NCBI GenBank assembly: GCA_000004985.1
Contig: GG738846.1
DNA length: 64,000 nucleotides
Direction: 5' to 3' (one strand)
Source of the DNA: Naegleria gruberi
Taxonomy: Eukaryota
A program made the translations under genes and the position numbers. Below the pieces are notes generated by a model that ran no database searches, was not told the DNA's origin, and saw nothing but the letters and a program-made list of their open reading frames with translations. Below, in pieces: positions 1,151 through 37,584 of the stretch (positions within the stretch are counted from its first letter, which is position 1; each line of letters starts with the position of its first letter).

Positions 1151-1423
1151 TTTTATTGTTGTGTTGGTTGGGTGAGAATCTTTTGGTAGAATGACATTCA
1201 AAAAAAACTGATCAATAACAATAAATATTAAACGAAATACGTTATTGTTCTCATCATCATTTGTGAAATTATTATCGGAACATATTAATATTACCTCATC
1301 AATTATCATATTCAATTCCCTCTCTATAATATGTTGCATTTAAAAATATCATGATATAGAACCTGGTATTTTAGGTGAGGTTATGATGATGTTTTTTGTA
1401 GTTCAAAACAGCGCCAAAAAAAA

Positions 1424-6086: not shown

Positions 6087-9000
6087 TTAAACCTTCTTTG
6101 ATCTTAATAATAATTGATCAAAACTCATTCTAGGAGCTCTATCTTCTTCATCCTCTTCCTTGATTGAAGATGTGTTTTGAGGTGGTCGAAGAAGTAAAGC
6201 TGATGAGGATGGTCGATTATTTCCATTATTATTATTATTACTTGTAGTCGGTGATGTATGTGGTACCACTAAGGAAATTGGTGGAGAATTTGGAGAAACA
6301 ACAATTTGAGGATCTGTGAAAACATCCCTATCCAAGTTGACCACTATTTCCTCTTCACTGAGAACTATTTGAGAAGTATTAGATGGTGTTGTAGCATTAT
6401 TAGACTTTTCCTTGTTGTAATTTTTCAAAAGAGTTTGATATCTACATCTCTTTCCACATATTATTAAAACATCCATCGAGTGCAACACTGTTGAAAGGGA
6501 CGGATTGGTGTAGGTATATCTGTGTTGCTCCTCTTTTGATTTGTTCATCCGACTTAGAGCCATCAAGATCAAGCCATGCTCATAAAAGTTAGATATCATG
6601 TCAAATACTGTCGATCCAACATAAATGGCATGGACTGGTACTTCAAACAGAACTGATTGATTGTCTCCAGCTACAAATTCATCAGCAATTAATTGATCCA
6701 AGAGTTCAGTAATTCTCTTATTATAGAACGATTGAGCCAAAATTCTTGAAAGGAAGGAAGAAGATGGGAAAATCTTTCCAGAAATATACAAATCAGAAAA
6801 TAAACAAAATCTATCAAATTCATCCAAGTTATGTTCAATAATTCCTCTTTCTTGCAGTGTCATAATTTTTTCATAAGTGGAAACGCCATCGTGTTGAATA
6901 AATTTCAAATTGGAACGATTACACAATTCAATCATGAAAAACTTGTTAGAATCGATAAAATCAATAGATAGTGCTAGCTTAATGGCCTCTGAATCGATAT
7001 TATAATCATTCTGTTCTTGATCTACTGCTTCCTCAGTAATATTATTCTCAATATTGACTAATTTTTCCTCCTGAGTAATGTAGAGGATGGATTTAGAAAG
7101 GTGAGCTCCTGCTTTTCTCAAATCAAAACTTTTTGATGGATTACCACTAATAAAGTACACATTGGAAAAGAATTTGAGCCTTTCATATAAAAAAACAAAG
7201 TACTTGTCAACAAATGGACTCATAAATACTATTTGAGTGAAATAATTTTGTCTTGATAGAGATCTAATGATAGAACAAATGATGGCAGGTTGTTGAAATT
7301 CTCCAATGATTAGAATGTGATCTCTAATGAGAGTAGGGATTCTATAGTTCGTAATTAAAAAGTCTTCCTTTGAACGAGGGATATTGGACACTAGATTATA
7401 GGTCTTTTGAACTTCTGAATAAAATTCACCTTCGAGACGTTTTCGTTCTTCTGGTTTTTTCTGTTTGATAGCTTTTAGTAGGCATCTCTTTTGTAAAAAG
7501 TAAAACTCTGGTGAAATAAGCTTTAGCAGAATCTCCATGTGTAGTGTGCTCAATTCTTCCTCTGATGGTTCATCATGTTTGTCTCTCAAGAGGTAAATGT
7601 CAGCTTTTCTTGATTCTGAGCTGATACTCTTTCTACGAGTACGTGTTGCATTTGCTGCCATCAATAACTTGTTAGGAAGAGTCTTCTTTTCTACAACCTT
7701 CTTTCTATGTTTTTCAGAGATTTTCATTACTTCCTTATTTTCATTTTTGTGAATGCCTTCAAAATCCATCTGCTCCTTAGCCAGATAATCAGCATAGTTT
7801 GGATCATAGAATTCGTCACCCAATTCTTCAATGATTTTTTGGGAATTGTAAATGAAGGGTTTTGCAGTTTTTAGTTTCTTTGTGGTTTTGATCTCTTCAT
7901 CTTCAGAGGATTGGTAATTTGATACTTCCTTTGCATGTTTATGACTTTTGGCAATACAAAAACATCTATCTCCTTCCTTGATTAAATAATTTGTTGGATT
8001 GACTAATATATTTCCATTTACATCCTCCACAGCAAAAATATTAACCTCTGACTTGGTAATCAACAAGAAAGCAGCATCAATAAACAAGCTATTATAAAAA
8101 GCAGGACTAAAATCAACTCTATAAATTTGGCAATTTAGACCTTCAGAGTATTCTAGAATCCACTTATTTTCAATGTATAAATTATCATAAAAATTCTTGG
8201 AACCGTTGGTGATCTCTACAGCACTCATAATATTAAACAGAAATGTTCCAATTCCTGACGAGACAGCGGAAGCTGACAAAACTTTTGAACTGATGGATTC
8301 ATTGCAGACGATAACTTTGGCACCAGCCTTGATCAAATATGGTTTCGATTCTACCAAGTTGATTTGGGCAAATACTTTCAAATTCTTATTGAAATTTCTT
8401 AAAGCTAAGATATGATTTATATAGAAAATGTAAATTGACTACTTACCGATTGTGGTCATTATTATGCTATTGTCTTGTTTTCTAGGATGCCCAATCTTTG
8501 GACTATTCAACAAGATAACTGAATGAGCTGTTGGTATCTCTAATAGTTGCATAATATCAAAATCCATAATGTCACCAGTATAAATGTAAATGTAGGATCG
8601 ATAATTGTTTTTCCTCAATGATTCTCTCAATTGTTCAGAAAGTTCCTTATTCTTGAAAACGCCTATTTTCATTCCAATAATTAGTGAGAATAACTTTCAA
8701 CTTACAAATCAGTTTCTTTGTTTTTTTCTTATTGAATTTGTGAAAGAAATGTTTGATAAAATCCACAACTTCATCATGACGAGCACTGCCCGACACTACA
8801 ACATGCTTTTTAAGAATTAAATTTTTCACCTTGAAAATGTTATCTTCACTGGTGATAATATCATAAATTCCACTCAACTGAAGTGGTATTAGTGAAACAC
8901 CAACCAAAAAGAAGAGAATAACAGCGTATCTAGAAACTGGATTGGATGGTGACTACAACAAGTGTTATCCACAACTAAAATTGAATAAAAACCTACAATA

Positions 9001-10181
9001 TCACCATAACCAATTGTAAAGAGTGTAATTACAATAAAATATAAACAATCGTGGAAGTAAATATCCTTATCTGAAAAGAATGCTTCACACCACTGAAAAA
9101 TTCCTGAAAAGAGTATCAGTAAACAAATTACAGTCAATCCCAATTCAATAACCTTAGCAGCAACAGAGTTAATATCACCCTTTCGAGAAATCTTCTTCAC
9201 CAAAGGAATTACTCTCAACAATCTCAATACTCTCAGTAAACCAACCAATGCATATGTATTTCCTTCCAACCATTCATTACGTTTAAAAGAAACAACAATG
9301 AGCACAAAGGAAGGAATTACCGTAACATAGTCCAAAATTGATAATGGATTAATGAAATAAGTGAGTCTGAATAATTATTCCAATAATTCCAAATTATCAT
9401 CAATTAAATATTACAATTCTTAATTAAATTAACACACATACTTTTCCTTTGAAAGAAAAAAATTAATCACAAAAAACAAAATGAAAAAGGCAATAAAAAC
9501 CAAATCCAAAATACTCAATGATACCAAACGACTTTCAATGTCAATCTGAATATAAGATGCTGCAATATATTCTGCAGCAGAAAGTACAGACAAGAGAGTT
9601 TGAAATAATTCCAATTCCAATTGTACTCCACCCAATCGTTTCTTTATGATATTCTTTCTAGATTTTTTCCATTCAAAAGTACGATTATTACCTATTTTCT
9701 CATTCTGTAGCACAGACTATTTAAGGTTTCATGAATAAAATTCATACTAGATACTCACTTTGTGCACGGCACTATTACTGAACATTTTTTGCATATATCC
9801 CATCATTTGAGAATTGGATACATTTCCATCACTATCAGCAAATGTTATGTGATTGTGTTTTTCTGTTATTAATGTTGGGGTCATGTTATTATCATTGGCA
9901 GTAATAGTAGACTGTTTATGTTGTTGTTGAATAGACGAAGAGAGAGGATCGGAATTTAGAGTTTGTTTGTTTTTATAATGATGATGATGATGATTATTTA
10001 TATGTACAATATCGTGTTGTGGTTGATGATGCGAGAGAGGTGATGAAGGTGGACTCTGTGAAGATGAGCTTGACGTTATTTGATATCTTTCAATAACCAC
10101 CTCCTCTTTAACTTTCTCAATATTATCCAAATCCTCTGTTGATGATCCTAAACAGAGTTGACTCATTTTTTTAGTATCCAT
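6087..10181 (-). CDS. BK/Slo-like K+ channel with TIGYGD selectivity filter and RCK domains, 6 exons: complement(join(6087..8404,8447..8662,8706..8952,8997..9366,9442..9716,9759..10181))
   Basis: Five minus-strand ORFs are stitched by short introns (42, 75, 44, 43, 42 nt) with donors GTGAGT/GTATGT/GTAGGT/GTAAGT/GTAAGT and AG acceptors, and all phases are consistent. The joined protein reads ...TIGYGDISPSNPVSRYAVILFFLVGVSLIPLQLSGIYDII...KKHVVVSGSARHDEVVDFIKHFF... (S6 then RCK1), followed by a long RCK region in the 6087..8404 exon. The N-terminal exon is His/Ser/Gln-rich. The exon 3/4 junction (8997/8952) is the least certain. Confidence 0.7.
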
Positions 10182-10472: not shown

Positions 10473-11564
10473 ATGTCCGTTACAATCAAATCAACAAGTA
10501 AATGTTTTGGTGGCTTAATTTTGGAGTGTACTCACACTGCTTCTACTGTTCAATGCCAAATGAATTTTCATATTTATAAACCACCAAAGGCATGTTTGGG
10601 TGAAAAGGTTCCTATTGTTGTCTTCTTGTCTGGATTGACTTGTAATGATACTAATTTTATTTTCAAAGCTGGAGCCATGTCCATTGCTTCACAATTGGGA
10701 TTAGCACTTGTATGTCCAGATACAAGTCCAAGAGGTTCTGATGTTGCTTCATCGGATAGTTGGGATTTTGGTCAAGGTGCAGGTAAGAGACAACAAAAAC
10801 ATTTCCGAATTTTAATTTTATATTTGTTTTATATATTTTAATAATGATTATGATGATGAAATGTGTAATGATCATGAAATCAATTGATTCACAATTCTAA
10901 ATATATATATATAGGATTTTATTTAAATGCTACACAAGAACCATGGGCTAAACATTTTAGAATGTATGATTACATTGTCAAGGAGTTGCCTTCTGTTTTG
11001 ATTGAAAATTTTGCAAAGGGTGAAAATGCTTGGCTCTTATTGGATAAGGAAGATCAATTACGTCAAAGTATTTTCGGTCATAGTATGGGGTATGTCAATA
11101 GTGTGTGAATTATTATTTAAATATATTATTTCAAAATATTATTTAGAGGATTGGGAGCTTTAGTTGTTTATTTACGTAATTTGGAATTGTATCATAGTTG
11201 TTCTGCCTTTGCTCCAATTAGTAATCCAACAGATGCTGAATGTGCATGGGGACAAAAGGCTCTCAAGGGTTATTTGGGAGACTCAGAAGAAGCTCGTTCT
11301 ACATTGTGGGTTCAACATGATCCAAGTGTACTTTTGAGTAATTTGACAAATGTTAGTTTGGTGAAGGAAATCTTGGTTGACCAAGGTAGTGAAGACAAAT
11401 TCTTACACTCTAAACAATTGCAAGTTGACAAGTTGGAATCTGCTGCCAAGAAGGTTGGAGCTTCACTCACCTTAAGAATGCAAGAAGGTTATGATCACAG
11501 TTATTACTTTATTCAATCCTTTGTTAAGGATCACCTTGAACATCATGCTAAATTTTTGAATTAA
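10473..11564 (+). CDS. S-formylglutathione hydrolase / esterase D; 3 exons: join(10473..10782,10915..11089,11147..11564)
   Basis: Collinear with esterase D throughout: KCFGGL...VVFLSGLTCNDTNFIFKAG...PDTSPRG...SWDFGQGAG | FYLNATQEPW...FGHSMG | GLGALV...QEGYDHSYYFIQSFV...HHAKFLN. Introns are GTAAGA...ATAG and GTATGT...TTAG with consistent phases. Confidence 0.85.
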
Positions 11565-11597: not shown

Positions 11598-13565
11598 TTA
11601 TTCAACACCAAATGTACTAGATTGTAGAGCTTTTTGAATTTGTAATTGCTTATCACGGTGATACTTTTGACATTCAGTAATACGATGTCCTCTACCTTGA
11701 CAATATTTACATTCAACATTCTCCAAATGTGCATAAGGGTCATAAATAGATTGTAAAATTGGTGGAATACGTTGATTTGCCTCTTTCAACAAGTATTTCA
11801 AGTCCAATAAAATTTGTTCAGATTGATTCTTATTGATAAATGTGGTAGCCAGACCTGTTTTACCATTTCTACCAGTTCTACCAATTCTGTGGACATAGTT
11901 TTCAATTTCACGAGGCATGTCAAAGTTAATAACATGTTTTACATTTGGAAAATCGATACCTTTGGAAACAATGTCAGTAGCAACGAGTACATGCTTTTTT
12001 CCTTGTTTGAACGAGTCAATAGCATACTCTCTCTCACTTTGATCCTTACTAGAGTGAATAGAGACTGCTTCTACACCTTTCAATAGTAAATATTCACAAA
12101 TTGTATCAACTTCACTCTTGTTCTGGGAGAAGATCAATACAGGTGGCGGTGTTTTTTGTAGAGCTTGGAGTAGATAGACAATCTTGTCTTCTTCTTGAAC
12201 ATATTCCACTTCTTGAATGACATCCAAATTTACAGCACCAGCTCTACCTACATTTACAATTATTGGTTGGTTCAATGTATTCATGGCAAGATTTTGAATC
12301 TTTTCAGGCATGGTAGCAGAGAAGAACACTTTTTGAATGTGATTATTATTCTTTTCACCACTCTGAGTACTCTCATTATTTTCATTATTCTGTACAAGGT
12401 TCAAGTGTTGGAATATTGTCTTGATATCCTCCTCAAAACCCAAATCAATCAATCTATCTGCCTCATCCATACAAACATATTTACAATCATTGAGTTGAAT
12501 CTTATTTTCATTCAACATTTGAATCAAACGTCCAGGAGTAGCCACAACTATATGTATATAACCTCCACCACTACTATTAGAAGAATAATATCTAGAATTG
12601 GAATTGGATTGATTGAATATTCTCTCTTCCTTGATACCTCCCATACAGAGAGAAACATTGAGCTTAAAGGTTTGGGATCGTTTCTTTTCTTGTTCATTAA
12701 TTCCATTAAAGAAATATTCTATAAATTCAAAGGTTTGCTTTGCTAATTCTCTGTTAGGACAGAGAATTAATCCTAGTGGTCCATTATTTCTCCTTATGCT
12801 TTTAGGTCTCGTTGCATATAAATGCTCATTCAAATAGGAATACATGATGATTGGCAAGGAAAAGACCAAAGTTTTACCCGAACCAGTAAAGGCGATACCA
12901 ATGACATCTCTACCTTCCAATAGACATGGTAATCCTTGCATTTGAATTGGTGTAGGTGTTTCTATATTCTTTTCAAGTAAAAGCTTTAAAAGACATTTTG
13001 GTAATTTTAAATGTTCAAATGTCAAGATTGGTGGAGGAGCACAAACACCATCAACTTGGATGCCAAAATTTTTTCTGATTAAATCCAGTTCTTCTACTGT
13101 TAAATTCCTATAATATTCTGGAACTGTCCAACTATAATTTAATTTACGATTAATGTCACCAGTTAAATTGTTAACAGCACTTAGGAATGATTGATTCATT
13201 AATTCTTTAAGTAATTCATTTTCTTTTTGTTCCAATTTTTCCATGTCTGTTAATTGTGGTTGTGTTTCCTTCAATTCTCTATTCTTTTTCAATAAACTTG
13301 CTGAATTTTTACTAATTTCCTCTACTTGCTCGTTTTTGGTCAATTCTTGTAATAATTTATGTTTTTTATGTGTTGGAATTAAATCCGCATCAAAGTTATC
13401 TTCCTCAACAACTTTTGATCCTGTTGTATTCCGAGATCTTCTTTCCTCTCTCTTTCTTTTCCACTCCAAATAGTGTTGTGATGATGCTTCATCTTGTTGC
13501 TTTTCTTCACCATCAAAACTATTGCTGGCAACCATCTGCCTCTCTTTGTCGTCTGTTGTTGGCAT
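11598..13565 (-). CDS. DEAD-box RNA helicase of DDX41/Abstrakt type with C-terminal CCHC zinc knuckle, 655 aa
   Basis: Q-motif TPIQMQGLP, Walker A AFTGSGKT, DEAD, SAT-like, HRIGRTGR, and a terminal CKYCQGRGHRITECQ zinc knuckle. Single exon. Confidence 0.85.
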   Translation of the reverse strand: MPTTDDKERQMVASNSFDGEEKQQDEASSQHYLEWKRKREERRSRNTTGSKVVEEDNFDADLIPTHKKHKLLQELTKNEQVEEISKNSASLLKKNRELKETQPQLTDMEKLEQKENELLKELMNQSFLSAVNNLTGDINRKLNYSWTVPEYYRNLTVEELDLIRKNFGIQVDGVCAPPPILTFEHLKLPKCLLKLLLEKNIETPTPIQMQGLPCLLEGRDVIGIAFTGSGKTLVFSLPIIMYSYLNEHLYATRPKSIRRNNGPLGLILCPNRELAKQTFEFIEYFFNGINEQEKKRSQTFKLNVSLCMGGIKEERIFNQSNSNSRYYSSNSSGGGYIHIVVATPGRLIQMLNENKIQLNDCKYVCMDEADRLIDLGFEEDIKTIFQHLNLVQNNENNESTQSGEKNNNHIQKVFFSATMPEKIQNLAMNTLNQPIIVNVGRAGAVNLDVIQEVEYVQEEDKIVYLLQALQKTPPPVLIFSQNKSEVDTICEYLLLKGVEAVSIHSSKDQSEREYAIDSFKQGKKHVLVATDIVSKGIDFPNVKHVINFDMPREIENYVHRIGRTGRNGKTGLATTFINKNQSEQILLDLKYLLKEANQRIPPILQSIYDPYAHLENVECKYCQGRGHRITECQKYHRDKQLQIQKALQSSTFGVE

Positions 13566-13657
13566 TTTTTTTTAATTTTTTAAAGGCTTTTGTTTCTTGT
13601 TACTCCCTGTTCAATTTAACGTTGATAATTTATTAATAATGGTGAGAGATTTACATC

Positions 13658-15277
13658 TCAACATAATAGTAAACAATATTTTAACATGTAAAACCATTCA
13701 TCTCTTTCAAATTCATTACTAAATTCAAAAAGCCACTTTTTCTTTTCAGTTCTATCATTAATTGTTAAGGTATTAAGTGATGAAATTGAAATATTCTTTT
13801 TCGGATTGTCATTAATGGTCAAGTAGCATAAATTGGAAAGTTCAATCTCTTCGAGTGGTTTCATTTCATTGTGAAATATGTCATTACTTGACCCATCTGC
13901 ATTGAATAGAATTAGTTTAAATTTTTGATTGGAAGAGTGAACAAGTAGAATGTGTCTCTTCTTCAATTTACTGTTTTGGAAAAAGCTCTTTACATCCTTC
14001 TTATAGGCAGAACCTTGTTTCAGTATGGAAAATTTGAAAGCTTCATTAAATGTATTAGAATTCTTATTGATTAGATAGTGTGTGAGAGATTTTAATGATG
14101 ACAAGTTTAAAGTTTGATTAGTATTTGGAATTTGACTATAAATATCATTTCCAAATAATGATTCAAATAATTCTGATGCTGAATCATCTATATTACATGT
14201 TGTTGATTCAATGGATGGAATTTTAATCCATTGATTATCCTTATTAATTACAGAAATGAGTGGAATAGGACTTTGAATAATTTGACTATGTTGATCTATT
14301 GATGATAAACCTCCTCCAATCATTGAATCCAGAATGTTAGTATTATTATTATTAGTAGTAGTATTGGGAGTAGCAGTATTATTTGTGCTATCAATACAAG
14401 TAGTGGTGGTATTGGAAAATACTCTCGAAGAAATGAAATACTCTCCATTATCAATATGATTTTCATTGATATAATCTGAGAGGAGATTGAAAATATTTTG
14501 TGAATTTTTACATTCTTGTAAACTTGTTTCCAATAATTCTTGTTTATCAAAATAGGAAAGATATTTTGGCAATTGATTTTTAGCAATAATGTAATGATCA
14601 GGGATATTTGCATTCGTTAAACTATTGATAAATAATAATGTTGACGAAATAAAACGAATCATTAATTTAAACAAATGATTAACTTGTTCTTCACTTTCCA
14701 TAGATTCGTTATTTACCACCTTCTTCAGTGCATCAAGCTTTTTGAAAAAGCTTTCCACCTTGTATTTCATAAAAACATCCAATCCGATAGAACTTTTCAT
14801 TATTGGATGAACCATTGCCTCGAGTGGAATATTTCTATGAGGAGGAGTAATGACCTCTCTCGTAAATGGATCTATTTAATATATTATTAATAATATATTT
14901 CAATGATTATATTTTGGATCAAGATTTGAATAATAATAAAATGCATTTTCAAAAATATAATATATTGTTGTATGATTTGTAGTTGTAGAATTTAAATATT
15001 TACCTGTCTTGTTGGTTTTTATCCAATCTAGAATTTTACTTTTTTCATAAATTCTTCCATTCAACAAGGCTGGTTCTACAAATATTGTTTCAGTTAGGGA
15101 ACAAATGAAATGCACCGGTGTATCAAAGTCATCACTGAAAAACTCCTCCAAAGTTGACATGCTTGTTTTTTTTGCTTTGAACTGTGAAACGTACAGCCAC
15201 CTGATGCTTGACATTTTGATTTTGGTGCACATTGAACTTGTATTACCATTGTAATGTACTCGAGGTTTATTAAACAT
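13658..15277 (-). CDS. U-box domain protein with C-terminal PH-like region; 2 exons: complement(join(13658..14871,15004..15277)). The start may instead be the ATG at 15160
   Basis: The U-box consensus spans the junction: DDFDTPVHFICSLTETIFVEPALLNGRIYEKSKILDWIKTNKT | DPFTREVITPPHRNIPL. The intron GTAAAT...AATAG (132 nt) keeps phase. The C-terminus ...WLFEFSNEFERDEWFYMLKY is PH-domain-like. The first in-frame ATG is only 5 bp downstream of the Vps15 stop. Confidence 0.55.
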
Positions 15278-15281
15278 ATTA

Positions 15282-18200
15282 TTACTTCCAAACCTTAAGT
15301 ATACCATCTCTAGAGCTTGTCAATAGTAATGGTTGGAAGTGGCCTTTAGATACACCAGAGACAATCTTGATATCAGTAATTGTATCCAAATGATGAGTTT
15401 GTACAGGTTGAGAGAATGTTCCTCCCCTTCTACTGGCACTTGTAGATGTCAGAATATCACCCTTATTGAATGGAACAGCTTCTTCTGAGTAAACTGTGTA
15501 CTTGTCTTCCTTTTTGGCAGAATAAATAAATGCTTGTTGCTGTTGTTGAGCTCCACTGACAACATAACTTTGCTCAATAGTGTTAGTATCCCAGAATCTG
15601 ATAATACCGTCACTACTTCCAGAATAGAATGAGCCATCAAATTCATTGACATATAATGCATTTACATCAAAAGTTGGTTCTTCTTGGAAGTGTTTTGTTC
15701 TGTCCTTCATAATTTTACGAATTTCTCCAATAGCAAATCTATCACTTACACCAGTCAAATTTGATGTTACTGTAGTGGCATTTGTAGTCATTGGATTGGT
15801 ATTTGGAGTAGTGTTATTACTCTTTTGCTTTCTAGAACTATCAGAACATCTGAATTTGAGTAAGGTAGATTGAGTTTCCAAATTCCACAAATCTACTTCT
15901 CTATTTTGTGATGCAATATATACAGAAGGTGCCATACTGGAGGTTTTTTGGAGTGGAGATGCTTTACAAATTCTATTGATGGCACTTTCAGTAATTCTAT
16001 TATTTGTTACACTTATTTGATATCTCAAATCCCACAAAGTTACATAACCTCTCTTTGTGGAGGATAAGATCCAAGGCTCATTCATATCACCACAACAAAT
16101 TTCAGAAATTGGTCCTTGTTCAAGTGATTGTTTTGATTTCCATGAGAATGCCTCTCTTTCACATCTTGGATCAATACCAACAATAATACCATTTTGATTA
16201 CCACACACCAAGAGTGGTTGTTGATGATTTTGGAACGGTCTGATAACATTAATAGAAGCCTCTTGAGTCTTGGCTGTTTGTACAAATTTGGCACCAGAAT
16301 CGCCAATAGTTATAGTATACATGGTTGTACCCAAATCAGCACTGAATACGTGAATCCAACCCTTATCTGTACATGCTGCAATCAATGGTGAAGAAACATT
16401 CAATATACCCACTGAATTAACTCTACCTCCTCCCTGAATGATTGTATAGGTCATTTTCGAGTTCATGGCAAAGTCTCTCTCAGTACTTGTCAAGTCCCAT
16501 AATCTAACAGTGCCATCATTACCACCTGTTACAAACCAGCACAAACTATCGTGAACAGATATTTCATTAATAGATCCCTTGTGCTCTGTAGATTGACCAA
16601 ATAAATTACCATTTGGTCTCCACTTGGCAATATTGGCTGATTTGAGAGGTGAAGTTACAGAGGAGAGGTTAGAGGTGGCGCCAACAGGATTACTTGTGGA
16701 TGGATTACCAGATGATTGATTTGTTTTGAGTGGAAGAGTTTCTTCATCTTTCTTCTTACTACTTGGTTGTTTACCTGTGGAATTAGTTGATGCAGATGAA
16801 TTACTTGCAGAAGGAATGGAAAAGAATGTATTCCATTCGTTATTATATTGTTTGGATTGTGCTGATTTGGATGCTGTTTGATTATTAACAATTGAGCTCG
16901 ATTGTAAAGTAATGTAAGGACTTTCTATTGGTGTGAAATGACTTGTAAGTGGTAAGTTCAATTTGATAATATTGCTCGAATTGGAGTTATTAGAATCCAT
17001 ATTTTCTCCTGTATTTTCCCAACTCTTGGATTGTATGGCCATGGCAACTTGTGAAAGATATGGTTTGATAATCTCTAATTTTTTCAAGTCCTCTTCTGAA
17101 ATGTTTGGTATTTTGGATGATATCAAAAGTGAGAAGGATTCAAATTTTTGTTGAGAATTCAAATCTTCCATTAAAATCTTGATAGACTTGTCAAAAATGT
17201 CTCTTTGAAGCGATTGTTTCAAACTTTCCAAAAGTGAATATTCATAAACTAGGAGAATATCGTGCTCTAAATGAGGTTTTAAAATTTCAATCAAGAAGCA
17301 ACTAGTATCTGCCAATCCCAAAGTCTTACTAGCAGCAGAAAAGAATGCAACACTATTATATCTTATCCAAGTATTTGGATGGTAAAGTAAAAATGAAACC
17401 TTCTTGGCAATATCTACAATTGTTGATTTTTCAAACATTTGCAACTCACACAAAGTTACCAATCCATTAAGAGCTTGGTCAATAACAAACTCTTGTACAT
17501 CGTACAATGCTTGCATAATACAAGGTAAAATAAATTCCTTCAATGAAGTTGGACCAACATATACAGAAATGCCAACAATTTGTTCAAAAAAGGCATGTCT
17601 CAGTCTCCATTGACGAGAGTTTAAGAATGTAATGACCATAGGTAGTACAAAATCGTTTGTCTTTCTCCTACCATAAAACATACAAAATGGTGTAATATTC
17701 TTTAAAAGTGCTACCTTCACAGGTGTACATTGATCCATAGAAAGTTCAAGAACAATCGAGGCAATTTCATCCTGTAATGAATTCAAATCAGTATCATAAG
17801 TTCCCTTTACCATAACTTGGGTAGTCATATTTTGTTTGATGATCTGACTCATTTCCAAAAATCTTCTTGCTTGATAAGCGAGTAATGGCAAATTTTCAGC
17901 AAAAGTGACACGAACCAAATCTGACTTGTCAGTTGAAATTATTCTCAGTGCTGGTAGAATGTAATCATTAAATAAATTGGACTCACTAGCTGAAAATGCT
18001 GTTATTTTTGCGAGAATATAAGTAAGAGTGTCTATAGCTTTTGATTTAACAAGTGGGGCCTGATCATTCAAAAGTGAACATGTGTATGGAATGAGTCTTT
18101 CCAATTTGGTATAGTTGGATGAAAAATCAGCTAACTTTTTCATTAAATCTAAACCTTGAACACGAACACTAACACTTTGAGCATTTCTTACACTGGAACA

Positions 18201-19742
18201 AAGTAGAGTGGCAATAATTTCAATTCCTTCATGAGAGTTGATTTGACTACTTTCAGATTTTTGAGTTAACTTTCTTCTTTCAACAAGCTTTTCAATGATA
18301 TTATTATTGGTGGATTTTTCTTGTTGCTTTGTACTTGTCAATCCAACATTGGTCTCTGAAAGATTCCTTTCTCCAAATGCTTGCGTATTTTGAATAAGGT
18401 CTAGCAAGGAATTCTTATGAACCATAGATCCACCACTACTACTACTACTTTCAGAATTTTGAGTGTTATTACTTGAAGAATGATTACTTGATAAAGTAAT
18501 TGTAGAGGATGTGTTGTTAGATAAGGTATTTTCTTGAGTTTCATTTTCAGAAATTTTAGAAATAATCATATCATACATATTCTCAATAGTTTGTATTCTC
18601 TTGTCACAATTCTTTTCTAACATTTGTATCATTACACTTTCATGAATAAATTTAAAATAATTTGGGAATATTCTTGGAGTGTACTTTTTAATGTACTCCT
18701 CTGCTGAAAATCTCTTATTAGGATCTAAATCTAACATATGTGATATCATTTCTCTTACATCCTTATCATCGATTCTTTCCATTAATTTTGAAAAGTGTTC
18801 AGTATCTCCCTTTCTATATGCAAGTAATTGTGAATAATCAAAGAGAGCTTCTCCATCAAGAAAGAGTTGTGCAATAACACATCCAACACTGAATATGTCC
18901 ATCTTTTCTGTTAATTCTTCACCATTATTAGGATTGACATTTGTTGAAGATTGAGTATTTTCTTCGATTACAGTAACACTTTGATCAACTCCATTAATGT
19001 CAACCATAATAAAAGATGAATCTCTTGCCAATCTATTACTTGAATTTGGTGCAAGTCCATTGTTATTATTTAAATAAATATTAGTGTTTGTGTTTGAAGA
19101 AGGACAAAAACGTTCAGGAGCCAACAAACAAATTCTTCTTCCCGATGTATCAAAATAATAGGAAAAGAATGATGGATCATCATCAGGTATTCTAGAAGGT
19201 TTAAAAGGAGCCAAATCAGTTAAAAAGACCCAATCCCACGCTGTTAATATAATATTATCAGCTTTTAAATCTCCATGATAAATTCCCAATTTGTGTATTT
19301 GTTTCAACCCTTCAAGTATTTGAAAAGCGATCCAACGTTTTCCAATAGAACTAAAAAACGGTCTAGTACTAATTCTATCAGCCAAATTACTATAACAAAA
19401 TTGTCTCACCAAATAACCAGCCTTGTCAGTTTCTACCATTCTATTATAACTTAAAACATTTGGTTGTGATCGGAGACTAAGTTTTTCATTGAGTAGTTTT
19501 AATTTTGCATGATGGGGTGCCAACGCCAGTGGTGGATCATCTTCCTTTTTCAAATATACTTTAACAACGACTGGCATACCCTCTTCAGTCCAACATTGCA
19601 CACTTTTTAATAATCTACCTCCTCCTAATGTGTGATCTTGAACCAATCCCTCGGCCAAATCCTGCAAGTGGAGTTCTTGAAGAGATCCACTCACGGCCAA
19701 TTGATTATTTCCCATTTTTTTAAATTTAATATTTATTTTCAA
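15282..19742 (-). CDS. VPS15: Vps15 (PI3-kinase regulatory subunit 4) protein kinase, 1486 aa, single exon
   Basis: N-myristoylation-type start MGNNQ, kinase-like domain (HGDLKADNIIL...DLAPF), central HEAT-like helical region, and C-terminal WD40 repeats (...LTSSRDGILKVWK). Confidence 0.85.
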   Translation of the reverse strand: MKINIKFKKMGNNQLAVSGSLQELHLQDLAEGLVQDHTLGGGRLLKSVQCWTEEGMPVVVKVYLKKEDDPPLALAPHHAKLKLLNEKLSLRSQPNVLSYNRMVETDKAGYLVRQFCYSNLADRISTRPFFSSIGKRWIAFQILEGLKQIHKLGIYHGDLKADNIILTAWDWVFLTDLAPFKPSRIPDDDPSFFSYYFDTSGRRICLLAPERFCPSSNTNTNIYLNNNNGLAPNSSNRLARDSSFIMVDINGVDQSVTVIEENTQSSTNVNPNNGEELTEKMDIFSVGCVIAQLFLDGEALFDYSQLLAYRKGDTEHFSKLMERIDDKDVREMISHMLDLDPNKRFSAEEYIKKYTPRIFPNYFKFIHESVMIQMLEKNCDKRIQTIENMYDMIISKISENETQENTLSNNTSSTITLSSNHSSSNNTQNSESSSSSGGSMVHKNSLLDLIQNTQAFGERNLSETNVGLTSTKQQEKSTNNNIIEKLVERRKLTQKSESSQINSHEGIEIIATLLCSSVRNAQSVSVRVQGLDLMKKLADFSSNYTKLERLIPYTCSLLNDQAPLVKSKAIDTLTYILAKITAFSASESNLFNDYILPALRIISTDKSDLVRVTFAENLPLLAYQARRFLEMSQIIKQNMTTQVMVKGTYDTDLNSLQDEIASIVLELSMDQCTPVKVALLKNITPFCMFYGRRKTNDFVLPMVITFLNSRQWRLRHAFFEQIVGISVYVGPTSLKEFILPCIMQALYDVQEFVIDQALNGLVTLCELQMFEKSTIVDIAKKVSFLLYHPNTWIRYNSVAFFSAASKTLGLADTSCFLIEILKPHLEHDILLVYEYSLLESLKQSLQRDIFDKSIKILMEDLNSQQKFESFSLLISSKIPNISEEDLKKLEIIKPYLSQVAMAIQSKSWENTGENMDSNNSNSSNIIKLNLPLTSHFTPIESPYITLQSSSIVNNQTASKSAQSKQYNNEWNTFFSIPSASNSSASTNSTGKQPSSKKKDEETLPLKTNQSSGNPSTSNPVGATSNLSSVTSPLKSANIAKWRPNGNLFGQSTEHKGSINEISVHDSLCWFVTGGNDGTVRLWDLTSTERDFAMNSKMTYTIIQGGGRVNSVGILNVSSPLIAACTDKGWIHVFSADLGTTMYTITIGDSGAKFVQTAKTQEASINVIRPFQNHQQPLLVCGNQNGIIVGIDPRCEREAFSWKSKQSLEQGPISEICCGDMNEPWILSSTKRGYVTLWDLRYQISVTNNRITESAINRICKASPLQKTSSMAPSVYIASQNREVDLWNLETQSTLLKFRCSDSSRKQKSNNTTPNTNPMTTNATTVTSNLTGVSDRFAIGEIRKIMKDRTKHFQEEPTFDVNALYVNEFDGSFYSGSSDGIIRFWDTNTIEQSYVVSGAQQQQQAFIYSAKKEDKYTVYSEEAVPFNKGDILTSTSASRRGGTFSQPVQTHHLDTITDIKIVSGVSKGHFQPLLLTSSRDGILKVWK

Positions 19743-19853
19743 AACACGCTTTTATTTGTTTCGAATTCATAATGCACTGCTCACGTTTATTCAAATAAGA
19801 CAAAAGCTAGCTAAAAATTTACAGTTTTAATACATTATTGGATCGTCTATTAA

Positions 19854-21407
19854 TTAATTTATTGAAGATTCCCAAGTTTTATCTTTGGCATGGAATTTCA
19901 AACTCAAATCCAACTGTATCATGTCTTGAATCTTTTTATCACAATTCTTAATTTCAATGATATTGTTGGAAGTAGAAATGCCACAACTTGGTGCAAACTT
20001 AGTTGGATGAATTTGAACTGATAAATTATTCAATTCTCCAATTCTATCATTCTTGATTGAAAATTGATTGCTAGAGTTTAGAATTATATTATCATTAATC
20101 GTTACTTGGTCCAAAACATTGATCTGCTCAGATTTCATTTCCAATGTGTTATTATTGTACAATAAAGTTATATCCAAACTATATACATATTCGGGTATAT
20201 CAATAATAAAATTATCAATAACCTTTCCCATCAAACGAGAAAAAAGCTCATCAGATTTACATCTAATAACTAAATTAGCATTATCATTGAAAGGAGTCAA
20301 TTGTAGATTGCAAATAATTAACTTATGATCATCATTCATAGTAACAAGAGAATTAACAGGCTCTACAGATAACTTGGTACCCACAGCAAGTACAAGTGTT
20401 GAATTTTCAACAAATTTAACTGCCTTTTTCCACAATTTTTCAGATAACTTTTCTCCAAAGTTTACTATCAAATCCTTAAGTGGTCCTCCACACTGTTCAC
20501 ACTTGTTTACAGTAAGGTGATCATCTTTGAAATTTTCATTCCTATTCAAAATATTCCTGTAAATACTTTCACTTGTAGGGTGAACAATAATATCTTGTCT
20601 AATAAATGTCTTGTCACATTTTTCGCAATGCTCTTTATAGCTATTGCCATGAATTTCAATAGTATCACTTTCACTGATACCACTCTTCCAATGGAGATTG
20701 TCACTATTCTGTGTGATAATATATTTGATATATCCCATGTCGTACAGTTTTTTAATGGACATATGGGTAAGAGTTGGAAAATATTTCAAATTATCACTAT
20801 CATTTGAATTTTTGGTGGTATCATCTTGTTTTAACCAAATACCATCCTTTCCTCTGTAGGTCTTTAAGCCAGCAGATGAACTTATTCCAGCACCTGTAAA
20901 TAAACAAATTTTTCCCTTATGCTCTTTAAACAAGTCTCCCAAGTGAGCTATCTTAGGTCTGAGAAATTCGTCATCCTCCTCAAATTCTACGTCACTATCA
21001 TAATCATTCTTTTCCAAATCACTATCACAATCCCTATCCTTCTTTTTTTTCTTTTTAGAGGATGAATCTTTCAGTGAATTCTTTCGTTTCTTTGGTGTTG
21101 TGTTTGATTTTACTGAACTTTCTGGTGTTTTTACAGTTTTTGATTCAGTTTTTTTTGGAGTAGGGTTGGATGTTTTCTTCTTTTTGGTTGGAGTTGTGTT
21201 GTAGACTGGTGAGTCACCATCGGAAGGGATGTTCTCCTCCTTCTTTGATTTGCTCTTTTTCTTATTCGATTTTACCCCTGTATCAATGTTCTCAGCTTTT
21301 GGTTTTTTAGAAGAAGAAGACGGTGTTTTGTCTGTAGTAGAGTTTGACTTTTTTCTCCTGGCTGTTCTGGGAGTTGTTGGTGTTGTGGCTGTTTGCTTTT
21401 CACTCAT
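19854..21407 (-). CDS. Sir2-family NAD-dependent deacylase, class IV (SIRT6/7-like), with K/S/T-rich N-terminal and long C-terminal extensions
   Basis: GAGISSSAGLKTYRGKDGIW, QNSDNLHWKSG, HGNSYKEHCEKCDK...CEQCGG zinc ribbon. The N-terminus is low-complexity S/T/K-rich. Confidence 0.8.
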   Translation of the reverse strand: MSEKQTATTPTTPRTARRKKSNSTTDKTPSSSSKKPKAENIDTGVKSNKKKSKSKKEENIPSDGDSPVYNTTPTKKKKTSNPTPKKTESKTVKTPESSVKSNTTPKKRKNSLKDSSSKKKKKKDRDCDSDLEKNDYDSDVEFEEDDEFLRPKIAHLGDLFKEHKGKICLFTGAGISSSAGLKTYRGKDGIWLKQDDTTKNSNDSDNLKYFPTLTHMSIKKLYDMGYIKYIITQNSDNLHWKSGISESDTIEIHGNSYKEHCEKCDKTFIRQDIIVHPTSESIYRNILNRNENFKDDHLTVNKCEQCGGPLKDLIVNFGEKLSEKLWKKAVKFVENSTLVLAVGTKLSVEPVNSLVTMNDDHKLIICNLQLTPFNDNANLVIRCKSDELFSRLMGKVIDNFIIDIPEYVYSLDITLLYNNNTLEMKSEQINVLDQVTINDNIILNSSNQFSIKNDRIGELNNLSVQIHPTKFAPSCGISTSNNIIEIKNCDKKIQDMIQLDLSLKFHAKDKTWESSIN

Positions 21408-21775
21408 TTTTCTTTTTTCCTTTAATATTTAAATTCTATTATTCATTTTCCCGCCTTTTTCATTTGAGTGCATAAATTTAAGTATTATTAATTGTTTGCT
21501 ATTGTTTAGTGGAGAATTGTCATCTTGTCAGACCGTATTGAAAATTAATTTAACAATATTACTTGTGTTTCATATCAAAATAATTTATGAAGGTTAAATA
21601 TTGATAGGTTCTCTTCAATTGTTATTTATTTATCATTAACAATACATGTGAGAGATTGGAGAGCGGAACAAAATTCAAGTCGTCAGCACACAAGGGAATC
21701 TAGGCGCGGTCTTGCATTTTGTAAAATACTGGTTGATTTTTGCGTTTAAAAAAATTTAAACAACCTCTAAAAAAA

Positions 21776-22740
21776 ATGTTGAGAAGACAAACCTCTACTT
21801 TCCTCGCCAAGTAAATATCACATTTATTTTTTTAATTGTATGACTAACACATTTGTGCTGCTATCTTTTTAAAATATAAATTTGCGCTCGCTTCCTACTA
21901 TTAAACAACAATAGCGCTTTGAAGCAACAAAAGACCTACGGTTTTGCTACCTATGCCACAGCTACTCAAGCTGCTACTTTGGATGAAACTGTCAGAAAGG
22001 TTTTGAAGCCAGAAGTTTTGAAGGTCATTGAAGCCAAGACTGACTCTCTCTTGATCAAAAAATTGAACTTCTTGGGTAGATACTTTGTCTGCAGATTGAA
22101 CGTTGCCAGCAAGTTGATCTTGAATTCCTTGTCTCAAGAAAACTGCTTCAGAATTATTGTTAACGAATTGGATGATCCATGGGAATACTACTGGAAGCAA
22201 GTTAGAAAGAACGGTAAGGACTCTCAAAAGTGGTTGGAAAGCTTGAGGGAAGTTAAGGACTTGCCAATGATTGCTGATAGATGTTGGAGAAACATGTTGC
22301 TCTCTGGTGTTTATCCAACTACTGAACACTTCAACACTTATCTTGATGTCTTGGCCAATACAAATGACAACTTCTACCTCCACGATACTTTCGATGATTT
22401 GAAGAGAAGAAACCCATATCAAAAGCCTGATGCTGCTACCTTCAACACCATGTTGGACAACTACATTAGACATCAAGATGGTCAAAGAGCCCTCGTCCAA
22501 TTGGAATACATGAAATCAAAGAATATTGCTGTTGATGCTTCCTTGGAAGGTAAGCTTAAGGAACTCGTTGCTACCTATGATCACGAAAAGGGTGCCGCTT
22601 GGGCTTTGGACAGAGGTGCTGATAAGCCAGAATTCGAAGTTAAGAAGGAACAAGCTTTAGAAAAGAATCAAAACAAGATTTCTGATAACTTGGAAAGATA
22701 CATCCAACCAGACTTCTCCAAGTTGGTTGTCCAAGAGTAA
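21776..22740 (+). CDS. Unknown protein, probably abundant and mitochondrial-targeted with PPR-like helical repeats; 2 exons: join(21776..21810,21915..22740)
   Basis: A 35-nt first exon MLRRQTSTFLA(N) ends in the GTAAAT donor and the acceptor lies at 21913-14. Exon 2 has strongly biased yeast-like optimal codons. Helical repeat motifs (ATFNTMLDNYIRHQDGQRALVQLEYMKSKNI) are present. I cannot assign a function. Confidence 0.5.
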
Positions 22741-32692: not shown

Positions 32693-32934
32693 TTTTTGAT
32701 CGTTGTTTTTGTGTGCTATCTTAGAGAGTTAATTAGAACCTCAACAACCACACAGTATTAAAATTTCTCTCACTCAAAATGTACCAAGTTTTGACGGTGT
32801 AACAATCCATCCTCGAGAAAATGTTTCAAAGTAACAACGTTTAAAAACAATACAAAATAAATTCAGAAAGGATTTAAGGATGTGAAAGAGGATAAATTTA
32901 TATGACCTCGGTTGGATATTTGAATAGTAATTAA

Positions 32935-33044
32935 AGGTTCTTAATTTAAAAAAAACAGACAAACAATGTTTCTTATTTGATACTATAGTAATGAACAAGT
33001 ATTCTTGTGTTGGGATTATTTATAATCTAATTTGTGGAAAAGGG
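32935..33044 (+). pseudogene. Relic copy of the lipid-kinase promoter-proximal region plus exon 1, with no splice donor and a stop after 24 codons
   Basis: About 110 bp are near-identical to 36822..36918 and 38953..39049 (...tcttatttgatactatagtaatgaacaagtattcttgtgttgggattatttataatc[t/c]aatttgtggaaaag) apart from a 12-bp indel. After ggaaaag the GT donor is replaced and the frame ends: MNKYSCVGIIYNLICGKGIQGMPC*. Confidence 0.5.
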
Positions 33045-35612: not shown

Positions 35613-35940
35613 ATCAAAGAACCCCAAGATATTGTCAATAGCGTACACCAAGAAAAGGTTATGCCGACAATAGCGTAACCTTTTCTTAGTGACGAATCAA
35701 AGAACCCCAAGACATTGTGGCAAAGATCTGAAACACTGTTGTGTGATATCTTTGAAAAACCATCCGCTCTTAGTTGGTGCTTACTTCATTTTTAGAATTT
35801 TTGTAAATTCTCCTTGTCGAATAGATAAACGAAAGTCAAATGAAACGAAAGATATTTAATCAGAGGATTTCCTCTTACTACGATGATCATAGAACCGGCA
35901 GCTAACAGTCAATGGCATAACCTTTTCTTAGTACGTTATC
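35613..35940. repeat. Palindrome/direct-repeat cluster (16-bp inverted-repeat hairpin plus twice-repeated 27-bp unit) with copy-A-specific 200-bp insertion; homolog in copy B at 37938..38075
   Basis: Copy B holds a perfect inverted repeat ctaagaaaaggttatg-N10-cataaccttttcttag (37983..38024) flanked by two copies of atcaaagaaccccaagatattgtcaat and a third copy of the right arm. In copy A the second unit is split at attgt|caat by 35719..35918. Confidence 0.5.
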
Positions 35941-36127
35941 ACTTTATCAAGACGTTTTGTTCGTTTAATGGAAACATGTTTTTCTTTTCCCCGGTCAACA
36001 ATTTTGATCCAAATATTCCCTTCCTAATACTTATTTCCTTTGGATCATAAAAATTTTCTGTATAATAAGTTTTCTCCTTTTCATCAAACATTGGTTTCAG
36101 TGATCGTTCAAACTCATCCAATGACAT
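35939..36127 (-). CDS. Small 62-aa ORF inside the repeat unit; intact in copy A, frameshifted in copy B. Doubtful gene
   Basis: MSLDEFERSLKPMFDEKEKTYYTENFYDPKEISIRKGIFGSKLLTGEKKNMFPLNEQNVLIK. The copy B homolog (~38090..38280) terminates early after ...TENFYEIKGNKY*. Confidence 0.15.
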   Translation of the reverse strand: MSLDEFERSLKPMFDEKEKTYYTENFYDPKEISIRKGIFGSKLLTGEKKNMFPLNEQNVLIK

Positions 36128-37534: not shown

Positions 37535-37584
37535 NNNNNNNNNNNNNNNNNNNNNNNNNNNNNNNNNNNNNNNNNNNNNNNNNN
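37535..37584. other. Assembly gap (50 N) between the tandem repeat copies
   Basis: A run of exactly 50 N. Confidence 0.95.

What the first reader, a model, noticed from the sequence alone, without database searches (positions are those of the whole stretch)
11598..21407. Operon-like array of four co-oriented genes with 5–112 bp spacers
Four minus-strand genes lie head-to-tail: the class-IV sirtuin, Vps15, the U-box/PH protein and the DDX41-like helicase. Stop-to-ATG distances are 112 bp (sirtuin to Vps15), 5 bp (Vps15 to U-box, or 122 bp if a later Met is used) and 92 bp (U-box to DDX41). Such spacers leave essentially no room for independent polyadenylation signals plus promoters. This suggests polycistronic transcription, promoters embedded in upstream coding sequence, or extreme UTR overlap.
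Basis: seen in the sequence. Interest (0 to 1): 0.55.

Follow-up and report, generated by a model that had tools for sequence, protein, structure and literature searches.

The report
Ordinary tight gene spacing in Naegleria
Four unrelated housekeeping genes of the amoeba Naegleria gruberi do sit head-to-tail with only 92-138 bp between them, but this is the normal gene packing of this very gene-dense genome, and nothing here points to an operon.

Summary
The window is Naegleria gruberi nuclear DNA. The four minus-strand genes are real: a SIRT6/7-like sirtuin, Vps15, a U-box/PH protein and DDX41. Two of the three reported spacers are wrong.

**Corrected spacers**
- Sirtuin to Vps15 is 138 bp, not 112.
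- Vps15 to U-box is 121 bp, not 5.
- U-box to DDX41 is 92 bp, as reported.

**Why the 5-bp gap is an artefact**
- Homologues start at the Met of 15160.
- The 39-codon upstream extension scores as non-coding.
- A 99.7%-identical strain carries a stop codon inside that extension.

**Why the array is not special**
- Runs of four or more co-oriented genes arise in 88% of random orientations of the window's 28 genes.
- Other tandem spacers in the window are 148-269 bp. Convergent stops lie -8 to 75 bp apart in five of six pairs. Divergent starts lie 84-368 bp apart.
- The array's spacers match half a divergent gap plus half a convergent gap.
- None of the three junctions is conserved in N. lovaniensis, N. 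fowleri or Willaertia.
- The spacers have no trans-splice-acceptor-like signal. Each has an AATAAA and the genome-typical A-run before the ATG.

The best reading is independent, compact transcription units. No transcript data could be checked.

The parts
19854..21407 (-). Sirtuin gene (517 aa, single exon), the first gene of the co-oriented run. It has a Lys/Ser-rich N-terminal extension and a SIR2 domain.
   Evidence: ORF. Pfam SIR2 7e-28. Best solved relatives are SIRT7 (7e-31) and SIRT6.
21447..21454 (+). E2F-like site TTTCCCGC (GCGGGAAA on the gene strand), 40-47 nt upstream of the sirtuin ATG. It is a candidate gene-specific promoter element.
   Evidence: TTTSSCGC gives 4 matches in the window against 0.69 expected, and 0 of 100 shuffles reach 4. 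Three lie upstream of assigned starts and the fourth is probably upstream of the DnaJ gene. Its function is inferred, not tested.
19716..19853 (-). Sirtuin to Vps15 spacer, 138 bp, 23% GC. AATAAA at 19786-19791 (63 nt after the stop) and A-run at 19716-19721 directly before the ATG.
   Evidence: No substitution in the 99.7%-identical contig L005.
15282..19715 (-). Vps15 (PIK3R4) gene, 1477 aa, single exon. It starts MGNNQ (an N-terminal Met-Gly, the residue pair that N-myristoylation requires).
   Evidence: The identical 1477-aa protein P0126 is called on contig L005. 71% identity to N. lovaniensis Vps15.
15161..15281 (-). Vps15 to U-box spacer, 121 bp. AATAAA at 15266-15271 (11 nt after the Vps15 stop) and A-run at 15166-15173.
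   Evidence: Homologue starts. Coding score 0.01 per codon and a TGA created by the strain SNP at 15262. 3 SNPs in 121 nt against 11 in 4434 nt of Vps15 CDS. Coordinates.
13658..15160 (-). U-box/PH-like gene, 456 aa. Exon 1 is 15004-15160, the intron is 14872-15003 (132 nt, GT..AG), and exon 2 is 13658-14871.
   Evidence: Splice reconstruction. U-box PF04564 at 32.6 bits spans the intron. Alignment to N. lovaniensis P0122 and Willaertia P0125. The NCBI N. gruberi model P0121 (385 aa) lacks exon 1.
13566..13657 (-). U-box to DDX41 spacer, 92 bp, 24% GC, 51% A. AATAAA at 13629-13634 (24 nt after the stop), TTTAAAAAATTA 19 nt before the ATG, and A-run at 13566-13573.
   Evidence: The same 12-mer lies 22 nt before the Willaertia DDX41 ATG, which sits in a divergent promoter region.
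11598..13565 (-). DDX41-type DEAD-box helicase gene (655 aa, single ORF), the last gene of the run.
   Evidence: Pfam DEAD and Helicase_C. Homologues are named DDX41/RH35. 100% identical to the partial N. gruberi model P0001, apart from 15 aa that the model spliced out.
10473..11564 (+). Flanking convergent esterase gene (two exons). Its stop lies 33 bp from the DDX41 stop and closes the run at its 3' end.
   Evidence: Pfam Esterase on both ORF pieces. Distances.
21776..22740 (+). Flanking divergent PPR-repeat gene. Its ATG at 21776 follows an A-run, and its intron is 21811-21914. The ATG lies 368 bp from the sirtuin ATG and closes the run at its 5' end.

Best explanation
This is a chance run of four functionally unrelated, independently transcribed genes in the gene-dense nuclear genome of Naegleria gruberi.

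**Proposed mechanism (inferred).** Each gene has its own small promoter and a short, A-rich 5' leader within the last 50-100 bp or so before its ATG. Each upstream mRNA ends within a few tens of nucleotides of its stop codon, and an AATAAA is present in every spacer. A spacer of 92-138 bp therefore holds a 3' end and the next promoter back-to-back, or slightly overlapping.

**Shown here**
- Gene structures and spacer lengths.
- The same tight spacing in all orientations across the window.
- No conservation of gene order in relatives.
- No trans-splice-acceptor-like signals.

**Inferred**
- The positions of transcription starts and poly(A) sites.
- That the A-run and TTTAAA-like elements belong to the core promoter or leader.
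For: 1. **Organism.** The window is N. gruberi. N. fowleri is noted for a gene density in the prokaryotic range (PMC9465069).

2. **Spacing across the window**.
  - Tandem spacers form one continuous series: 92, 121, 138, 148, 149, 168, 173, 189, 194, 237 and 269 bp.
  - Convergent stop-to-stop gaps are -8, 4, 33, 75, 75 and 352 bp.
  - Divergent ATG-to-ATG gaps are 84 (uncertain), 181, 232, 291 and 368 bp.
  - Half the median divergent gap (about 116) plus half the median convergent gap (about 27) is about 143 bp. This matches the array's 92-138 bp.

3. **Related species.** Annotated loci of N. fowleri, N. lovaniensis and Willaertia show the same pattern. Tandem gaps run from 19 to 1458 bp with a median of 229. 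One run has 4 co-oriented genes with 64-200 bp gaps and another has 7 co-oriented genes.

4. **Orientation.** There are 13 runs among 28 genes (mean 2.15). A run of four or more is expected in 88% of random orientations. A preprint reports about 2 genes per directon in Heterolobosea.

5. **Synteny.** None of the three junctions is conserved.
  - In N. lovaniensis the U-box gene lies between a purple acid phosphatase and a phosphodiesterase.
  - In N. lovaniensis Vps15 lies next to a divergent guanylate cyclase.
  - N. fowleri and Willaertia DDX41 have other neighbours.

6. **Start regions.** The internal genes look like genes at divergent promoters. 16 of 21 starts have a run of six or more A within 60 nt upstream, including all four array genes. 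TTTAAAAAATTA lies at -19 before N. gruberi DDX41 and at -22 before Willaertia DDX41, which heads a divergent pair.

7. **3' signals.** AATAAA lies 11, 24 and 63 nt after the Vps15, U-box and sirtuin stops. AATAAA within 70 nt of a stop is modestly enriched: 9 of 26 against 5.0 in shuffles, P about 0.02. In the other loci it is 7 of 34 against 3.3.

8. **Promoter elements.** E2F-like sites are enriched, and three of the four lie upstream of assigned starts. This fits short gene-specific promoters close to the ATG.
Against: - No transcript evidence could be obtained. The only extra N. gruberi-like sequence found (L005) is genomic, because it runs into the U-box intron.
- The array holds the three shortest of the window's 11 tandem spacers. 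The nominal probability is 1 in 165 before allowing for the fact that it was selected for shortness.
- No shared, positioned promoter motif beyond A-runs and TTTAAA-like words could be demonstrated with 21 starts.
- AATAAA is absent after more than half of the stops, so it is not established as the poly(A) signal in this organism.
- The gene models for the rest of the window are my own ORF-based approximations.
Confidence: 0.85

Rival explanations
1. Transcription units overlap and read through without forming a functional operon. Termination after the sirtuin, Vps15 and U-box genes is leaky, so a fraction of transcripts run into the next gene as bicistronic by-products, as described for closely spaced yeast genes. 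Each gene still makes its protein from its own monocistronic mRNA.
For: - The spacers are short (92-138 bp) and are the shortest tandem spacers in the window.
- In yeast, bicistronic transcripts are associated with shorter intergenic spacers (PMC8573964).
- Convergent genes in this window end 4-75 bp apart or overlap. 3' ends must therefore often extend into neighbouring genes.
Against: - There are no transcript data.
- AATAAA is present early in each spacer.
- This reading would be a quantitative side-effect of compaction and not a distinct feature of this locus.
- It does not conflict with the main explanation.
Confidence: 0.1
2. The array is a true polycistronic unit. One promoter upstream of the sirtuin gene drives a four-gene precursor. 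The precursor is either resolved into single mRNAs by spliced-leader trans-splicing plus polyadenylation, as in Euglenozoa and nematodes, or translated as a polycistron, as in green algae.
For: - The four genes are co-oriented with spacers of 138 bp or less.
- Naegleria belongs to Discoba, the group that also contains the polycistronic Euglenozoa.
- A recognisable transcription-factor site (E2F-like) lies upstream of the first gene, and none was found in the internal spacers.
Against: - No polypyrimidine-AG acceptor lies upstream of the internal ATGs. Those regions are 41-51% A.
- No Rfam family, including the spliced-leader RNAs, matches in the window. This is a weak test.
- Heterolobosea show about 2 genes per directon and no shortening of spacers within directons.
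- Gene order is not conserved in three related genomes.
- The spacers are not shorter than half a divergent gap plus half a convergent gap.
- Translation of downstream ORFs from an unprocessed polycistron is implausible. 31, 95 and 37 ATG triplets precede the Vps15, U-box and DDX41 starts. Green-algal polycistronic genes, by contrast, are small and closely spaced (PMC7896298).
- The four genes have no functional link.
Confidence: 0.03
3. The promoters of the downstream genes lie inside the coding sequence of the upstream genes, so the spacers hold only UTRs.
For: - The 92-bp spacer must hold the U-box 3' end as well as the DDX41 promoter and leader.
- The shortest divergent gaps (84-181 bp) show that regulatory sequences are very compressed, and some may extend into ORFs.
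Against: - Divergent pairs show that two complete promoters fit in about 180-370 bp of non-coding DNA.
- No motif was tested or found inside the upstream coding ends.
- With the corrected starts, every spacer is at least 92 bp.
Confidence: 0.1

Closest known systems
Gene-dense protist genomes with monocistronic genes, short UTRs and very small promoters (Naegleria itself; from my own knowledge also Giardia, Entamoeba, Trichomonas and microsporidia)
   Same: - Intergenic gaps of tens to a few hundred bp in every orientation.
- Convergent genes that almost abut.
- AT-rich or A-rich sequence directly before the start codon.
- Unrelated neighbouring genes and gene order that is not conserved.
- High gene density is documented for N. 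fowleri (PMC9465069).
   Different: Nothing found here departs from this pattern. Transcription starts and poly(A) sites in Naegleria were not available to me, so the promoter size is inferred from spacing only.
Polycistronic transcription units of Euglenozoa (kinetoplastid PTUs) and nematode operons with spliced-leader trans-splicing
   Same: Co-oriented, functionally unrelated genes with short spacers. Naegleria is in the same supergroup (Discoba) as Euglenozoa.
   Different: - The run has only 4 genes, no more than chance gives.
- There is no acceptor-like signal.
- The spacers are not shorter than expected from divergent and convergent gaps.
- Gene order is not conserved.
- Heterolobosea as a group show no directon expansion (10.64898/2026.07.29.740908).
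Polycistronic mRNAs of green algae (PMC7896298) and bicistronic read-through transcripts of budding yeast (PMC8573964)
   Same: Closely spaced colinear ORFs in a eukaryote that has no known spliced leader.
   Different: - Green-algal polycistronic genes are small, and their loci are often conserved across species.
- Here the upstream ORFs are 456-1477 codons long, with 31-95 ATG triplets before the next start, and the adjacency is not conserved.
- Yeast-type read-through cannot be excluded, but it would be noise and not an operon.

Membership tests
Eukaryotic operon / polycistronic transcription unit (SL trans-splicing type) | Co-oriented gene clusters longer than random orientation gives | tested here: not met
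   A run of 4 among 28 genes. 88% of random orientations give a run of four or more. The window's mean run is 2.15. Heterolobosea have about 2 genes per directon.
Eukaryotic operon / polycistronic transcription unit (SL trans-splicing type) | Spacers inside the cluster clearly shorter than those of independently transcribed tandem genes (bimodal distribution) | tested here: not met
   The tandem series is continuous: 92, 121, 138 then 148-269 bp. The array values match half the divergent gap plus half the convergent gap, about 143 bp. The sample is small (11 junctions).
Eukaryotic operon / polycistronic transcription unit (SL trans-splicing type) | Trans-splice acceptor (polypyrimidine tract plus AG) upstream of downstream ORFs, and a spliced-leader RNA | tested here: not met
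   No run of 8 or more pyrimidines followed by AG in any spacer. The last 50 nt before each ATG are 26-40% pyrimidine. There is no Rfam match in the window. The rest of the genome was not searched for an SL RNA gene.
Eukaryotic operon / polycistronic transcription unit (SL trans-splicing type) | Gene order conserved among relatives | tested here: not met
   N. lovaniensis U-box and Vps15 loci, N. fowleri DDX41 locus and Willaertia DDX41 locus, each with 10 kb on both sides. None contains another gene of the array.
Eukaryotic operon / polycistronic transcription unit (SL trans-splicing type) | A multi-gene primary transcript is observed | not testable with these tools
   No N. gruberi transcript sequences were reachable. 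L005 is genomic.
Compact monocistronic gene organisation of a gene-dense protist genome | Short intergenic distances regardless of gene orientation | tested here: met
   Window medians are 168 bp tandem, 54 bp convergent and 232 bp divergent. The annotated loci of related species are similar.
Compact monocistronic gene organisation of a gene-dense protist genome | Every gene, internal or at a divergent promoter, has the same kind of sequence before its start codon | tested here: met
   16 of 21 starts have AAAAAA within 60 nt upstream, including all four array genes. The DDX41 proximal 12-mer is shared with Willaertia.
Compact monocistronic gene organisation of a gene-dense protist genome | Candidate 3'-end signal after each stop codon | tested here: inconclusive
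   AATAAA lies 11, 24 and 63 nt after the three internal stops. Genome-wide it is only modestly enriched (9 of 26 against 5.0), and it is not established as the signal in Naegleria.
Compact monocistronic gene organisation of a gene-dense protist genome | Mapped transcription start and poly(A) site for each gene | not testable with these tools
   Needs CAGE, 5' RACE or long-read RNA data.

The most novel reading that the evidence does not exclude
The tightest tandem gene pairs of Naegleria, including this array, might be routinely co-transcribed and then cut into single mRNAs. That would be an incipient form of the polycistronic expression that became universal in its Discoba relatives, the Euglenozoa.
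Probability: 0.04. Interest if true: 0.7.

Novelty: already known. Interest (0 to 1): 0.12.

Why it matters
As it stands, this matters little. It illustrates the known gene density of Naegleria genomes.

It has some practical value for annotation:
- The public N. gruberi models for two of the four genes are incomplete. The U-box exon is missing, and DDX41 is partial with a false intron.
- Taking the first in-frame ATG creates false near-zero spacers.

If co-transcription were real, it would bear on how polycistronic transcription arose in Discoba. The evidence here points the other way.

Tried and rejected
- **Exact-sequence look-ups.** Searches for the window's DDX41 and sirtuin proteins and for the NCBI DDX41 model, made to fetch N. 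gruberi contigs or transcript assemblies, found nothing on record.
- **Contig L005.** The one N. gruberi-like contig found was hoped to be a transcript. It is collinear with the genome into the U-box intron, so it is genomic DNA of another strain.
- **Promoter motif discovery.**
  - Searches on 21 upstream regions gave only A-runs and TTTAAA-type words. TTTAAA is enriched against shuffles but not positioned: 10 proximal against 8 distal.
  - ACAATTA (8 of 21) and TGTGAAA (6 of 21) do not survive correction for the number of 7-mers tested.
- **Cross-species upstream comparison.** This gave one suggestive shared 12-mer for DDX41 and nothing for Vps15 or the U-box gene.
- **RNA searches.** Rfam and tRNA scans of the window found nothing.
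- **Literature.**
  - Searches on Naegleria UTR lengths, transcription starts, trans-splicing and bicistronic transcripts found no direct study.
  - The N. gruberi genome paper (PubMed 20211133) is not held.
- **Rejected reading.** The U-box gene does not have a genuine N-terminal extension that abuts Vps15.
Full report
**What the window is.** The 655-aa ORF at 11598-13565 (minus strand) is identical to the partial NCBI protein 'predicted protein [Naegleria gruberi]', apart from 15 residues that the gene model spliced out. Next come N. fowleri (60% identity) and Willaertia magna (50%). The window is about 32% G+C, has long ORFs under the standard code, and has occasional short GT..AG introns. 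It is nuclear DNA of the heterolobosean amoeba N. gruberi.

**The four genes.** All lie on the minus strand.
- Sirtuin, 21407-19854, 517 aa. Its best solved relatives are SIRT7 and SIRT6.
- Vps15, 19715-15282, 1477 aa, starting MGNNQ. It has a kinase domain, a VPS15 helical domain and WD40 repeats.
- U-box/PH-like protein, 15160-13658, 456 aa, with a 132-nt intron at 15003-14872 that splits the U-box. PF04564 scores 32.6 bits. PH scores 21.5 bits, below its cut-off.
- DDX41-type helicase, 13565-11598.

The run is closed at its 3' end by a convergent esterase gene whose stop lies 33 bp from the DDX41 stop. It is closed at its 5' end by a divergent PPR gene whose ATG at 21776 lies 368 bp from the sirtuin ATG.

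**Checking the spacers.** The U-box to DDX41 gap is 92 bp, as reported. The sirtuin to Vps15 gap is 138 bp, not 112.

The 5-bp gap between Vps15 and the U-box gene does not stand. It depends on an in-frame ATG at 15277. Five results place the real start at 15160, which gives a 121-bp spacer.
- The N. lovaniensis and Willaertia homologues begin MSSLEEFFSDD, aligned to the Met at 15160.
- N. lovaniensis has in-frame stops just upstream of its ATG.
- The 39-codon stretch scores 0.01 per codon on a codon-usage log-odds. Real coding windows score 0.45 +/- 0.18 and spacers -0.03.
- A 4986-bp ENA metagenome contig (L005) is 99.7% identical and collinear with the window. It carries a C>T change at 15262 that makes codon 6 of the stretch a TGA.
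- That contig has 3 substitutions in these 121 nt against 11 in the 4434 nt of Vps15 coding sequence, 9 of them at third codon positions.

The ATG at 15160 also has the A-run that precedes nearly every start in the window, and 15277 does not. The AATAAA that follows the Vps15 stop by 11 nt lies inside the supposed extension.

**Is the array unusual?** I built an approximate gene map of the whole window from long ORFs, codon-usage scores and Pfam hits.

Orientation gives no signal.
- About 28 genes form 13 same-strand runs with a mean of 2.15 genes.
- Three runs have four or more genes, with 1.6 expected.
- In simulation, 88% of random orientations contain at least one run of four or more.

Spacing gives at most a weak signal.
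- The 11 well-defined tandem spacers are 92, 121, 138 (the array), then 148, 149, 168, 173, 189, 194, 237 and 269 bp.
- The array is therefore at the short end of one continuous series, not in a class of its own. It was also chosen for being short.

Other orientations are just as tight.
- Convergent stops are -8, 4, 33, 75, 75 and 352 bp apart.
- Divergent starts are 84 (uncertain), 181, 232, 291 and 368 bp apart.
- Suppose each gene needs about half a divergent gap upstream (about 116 bp) and half a convergent gap downstream (about 27 bp). A tandem pair of independent genes should then sit about 143 bp apart. The array's 92-138 bp fits that expectation. This removes the premise that such spacers leave no room for separate signals.

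Annotated loci from relatives show the same pattern.
- N. fowleri has four co-oriented genes with gaps of 64-200 bp.
- N. lovaniensis has seven co-oriented genes in a row.
- Over 21 tandem junctions the gaps run from 19 to 1458 bp, with a median of 229.

**Signals in the spacers.** All three spacers are AT-rich (23-34% G+C) and A-rich on the gene strand. None has a pyrimidine run followed by AG that could serve as a trans-splice acceptor.
- Each spacer has an AATAAA after the upstream stop, at +63, +11 and +24. Across the window, AATAAA within 70 nt of a stop occurs at 9 of 26 genes against 5.0 in dinucleotide shuffles (P about 0.02). In the related loci it occurs at 7 of 34 against 3.3. It is a plausible 3'-end signal, but not a universal one.
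- Sixteen of 21 starts have six or more A within 60 nt upstream, including all four array genes. Many annotated starts in the related species do too.
- The DDX41 start is preceded by TTTAAAAAATTA at -19. The Willaertia DDX41 start, which lies in a divergent promoter region, has the same 12-mer at -22. This is suggestive only, because the sequence is of low complexity.
- The E2F consensus TTTSSCGC occurs four times in the window against 0.69 expected (0 of 100 shuffles reach four). Three sites lie upstream of assigned starts, and one of these is 40 nt before the sirtuin ATG. The fourth is probably upstream of the DnaJ gene. This suggests that gene-specific promoter elements sit very close to start codons in this genome.
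- I could not define a general promoter motif from so few genes.

**Comparative evidence.** None of the three junctions is conserved, and tblastn confirms it.
- In N. lovaniensis the U-box gene lies between a purple acid phosphatase and a phosphodiesterase.
- In N. lovaniensis Vps15 lies beside a divergent guanylate cyclase and a small convergent gene.
- In N. fowleri and Willaertia, DDX41 has unrelated neighbours.

The four proteins share no pathway.

**Literature.**
- A 2026 preprint on 59 Discoba species reports about 2 genes per directon for Heterolobosea and Jakobida. It also reports no heavy tail of long directons and a ratio of about 1 between inter- and intra-directon intergenic lengths, in contrast to Euglenozoa (10.64898/2026.07.29.740908).
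- N. fowleri is noted for a gene density in the prokaryotic range (PMC9465069).
- I found no study of Naegleria transcription starts, UTR lengths or spliced leaders.

**Mechanism.** The best-supported reading is four independent transcription units packed end to end. The upstream mRNA ends within tens of nucleotides of its stop. A compact promoter and a short A-rich leader fill the rest of the spacer. For the 92-bp spacer, the two probably overlap a little.
- Occasional read-through into the next gene is possible, as in closely spaced yeast genes (PMC8573964). It would be a by-product of compaction.
- A functional polycistron is unlikely. There is no acceptor-like signal. Between 31 and 95 ATG triplets lie between each ORF start and the next, so scanning ribosomes could not reach downstream ORFs. 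Green-algal polycistronic genes, by contrast, are small and closely spaced (PMC7896298).

**Limits.**
- No transcript data were available, so transcription starts and poly(A) sites are inferred.
- The gene map outside the array is approximate.
- The sample of junctions is small.

**Verdict.** The operon reading is not supported. The feature is ordinary for this genome.

Noticed in passing
window 35250-37534 and 37585-39700, gap 37535-37584: A block of about 2.1-2.3 kb is present twice in tandem at 95-100% identity, directly flanking a 50-N assembly gap. It includes the 5' part of the diacylglycerol-kinase-like gene (37053-37534 matches 39184-...). This is probably an assembly artefact of two alleles, or possibly a recent tandem duplication.
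   Followed up: partly
window 13658-15160 and 11598-13565: The public N. gruberi protein models for two of the four genes are incomplete. The 'pleckstrin-like' model P0121 (385 aa) starts at 14815 and lacks the U-box exon. The DDX41 model P0001 (483 aa) is partial and removes 15 in-frame residues as a false intron.
   Followed up: yes
window 4710/4715, 11564/11598, 63683-63690: Convergent genes end 4 bp and 33 bp apart, and one pair of ORFs overlaps by 8 bp at the stops. The 3' UTRs of opposite-strand genes must therefore overlap or run into each other's coding sequence.
   Followed up: partly
window 1411-1418, 21447-21454, 48603-48610, 50089-50096: E2F-consensus sites (TTTSSCGC) are over-represented: 4 against 0.69 expected. 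Three lie upstream of assigned start codons. These are the divergent pair at the left end of the window, the sirtuin, and the 715-aa gene at 46385-48532. The fourth is probably upstream of the DnaJ gene.
   Followed up: partly
window-wide, directly upstream of start codons (e.g. 13566-13573, 15166-13573, 19716-19721): Nearly every gene has a run of 6-10 A immediately or a few nt before its ATG. The same is seen at many annotated starts in N. fowleri, N. lovaniensis and Willaertia. It is useful for choosing start codons in this genus.
   Followed up: partly
L005 (ENA ERZ929261, run ERR1078381), matching window 19934-14959: A contig from a data set labelled 'metagenome' is 99.7% identical to N. 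gruberi here, so a very close strain was present in that sample. Substitution density is about ten times higher in the Vps15 to U-box spacer than in the Vps15 coding sequence. The last 10 nt of the contig do not match the window.
   Followed up: partly
window 32700-35250: About 2.5 kb downstream of the longin-SNARE gene start has no ORF above 80 codons apart from a short high-scoring piece at 34727-34990 (minus strand). It has no tRNA or Rfam match. It may hold an intron-rich or unannotated gene.
   Followed up: no
L004 (N. lovaniensis PYSW02000010.1) 7179-9687: The precomputed Pfam list for the purple acid phosphatase gene next to the U-box homologue includes PF07282 (Cas12f1-like TNB), alongside the phosphatase domains. 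This is an odd combination and was not examined.
   Followed up: no
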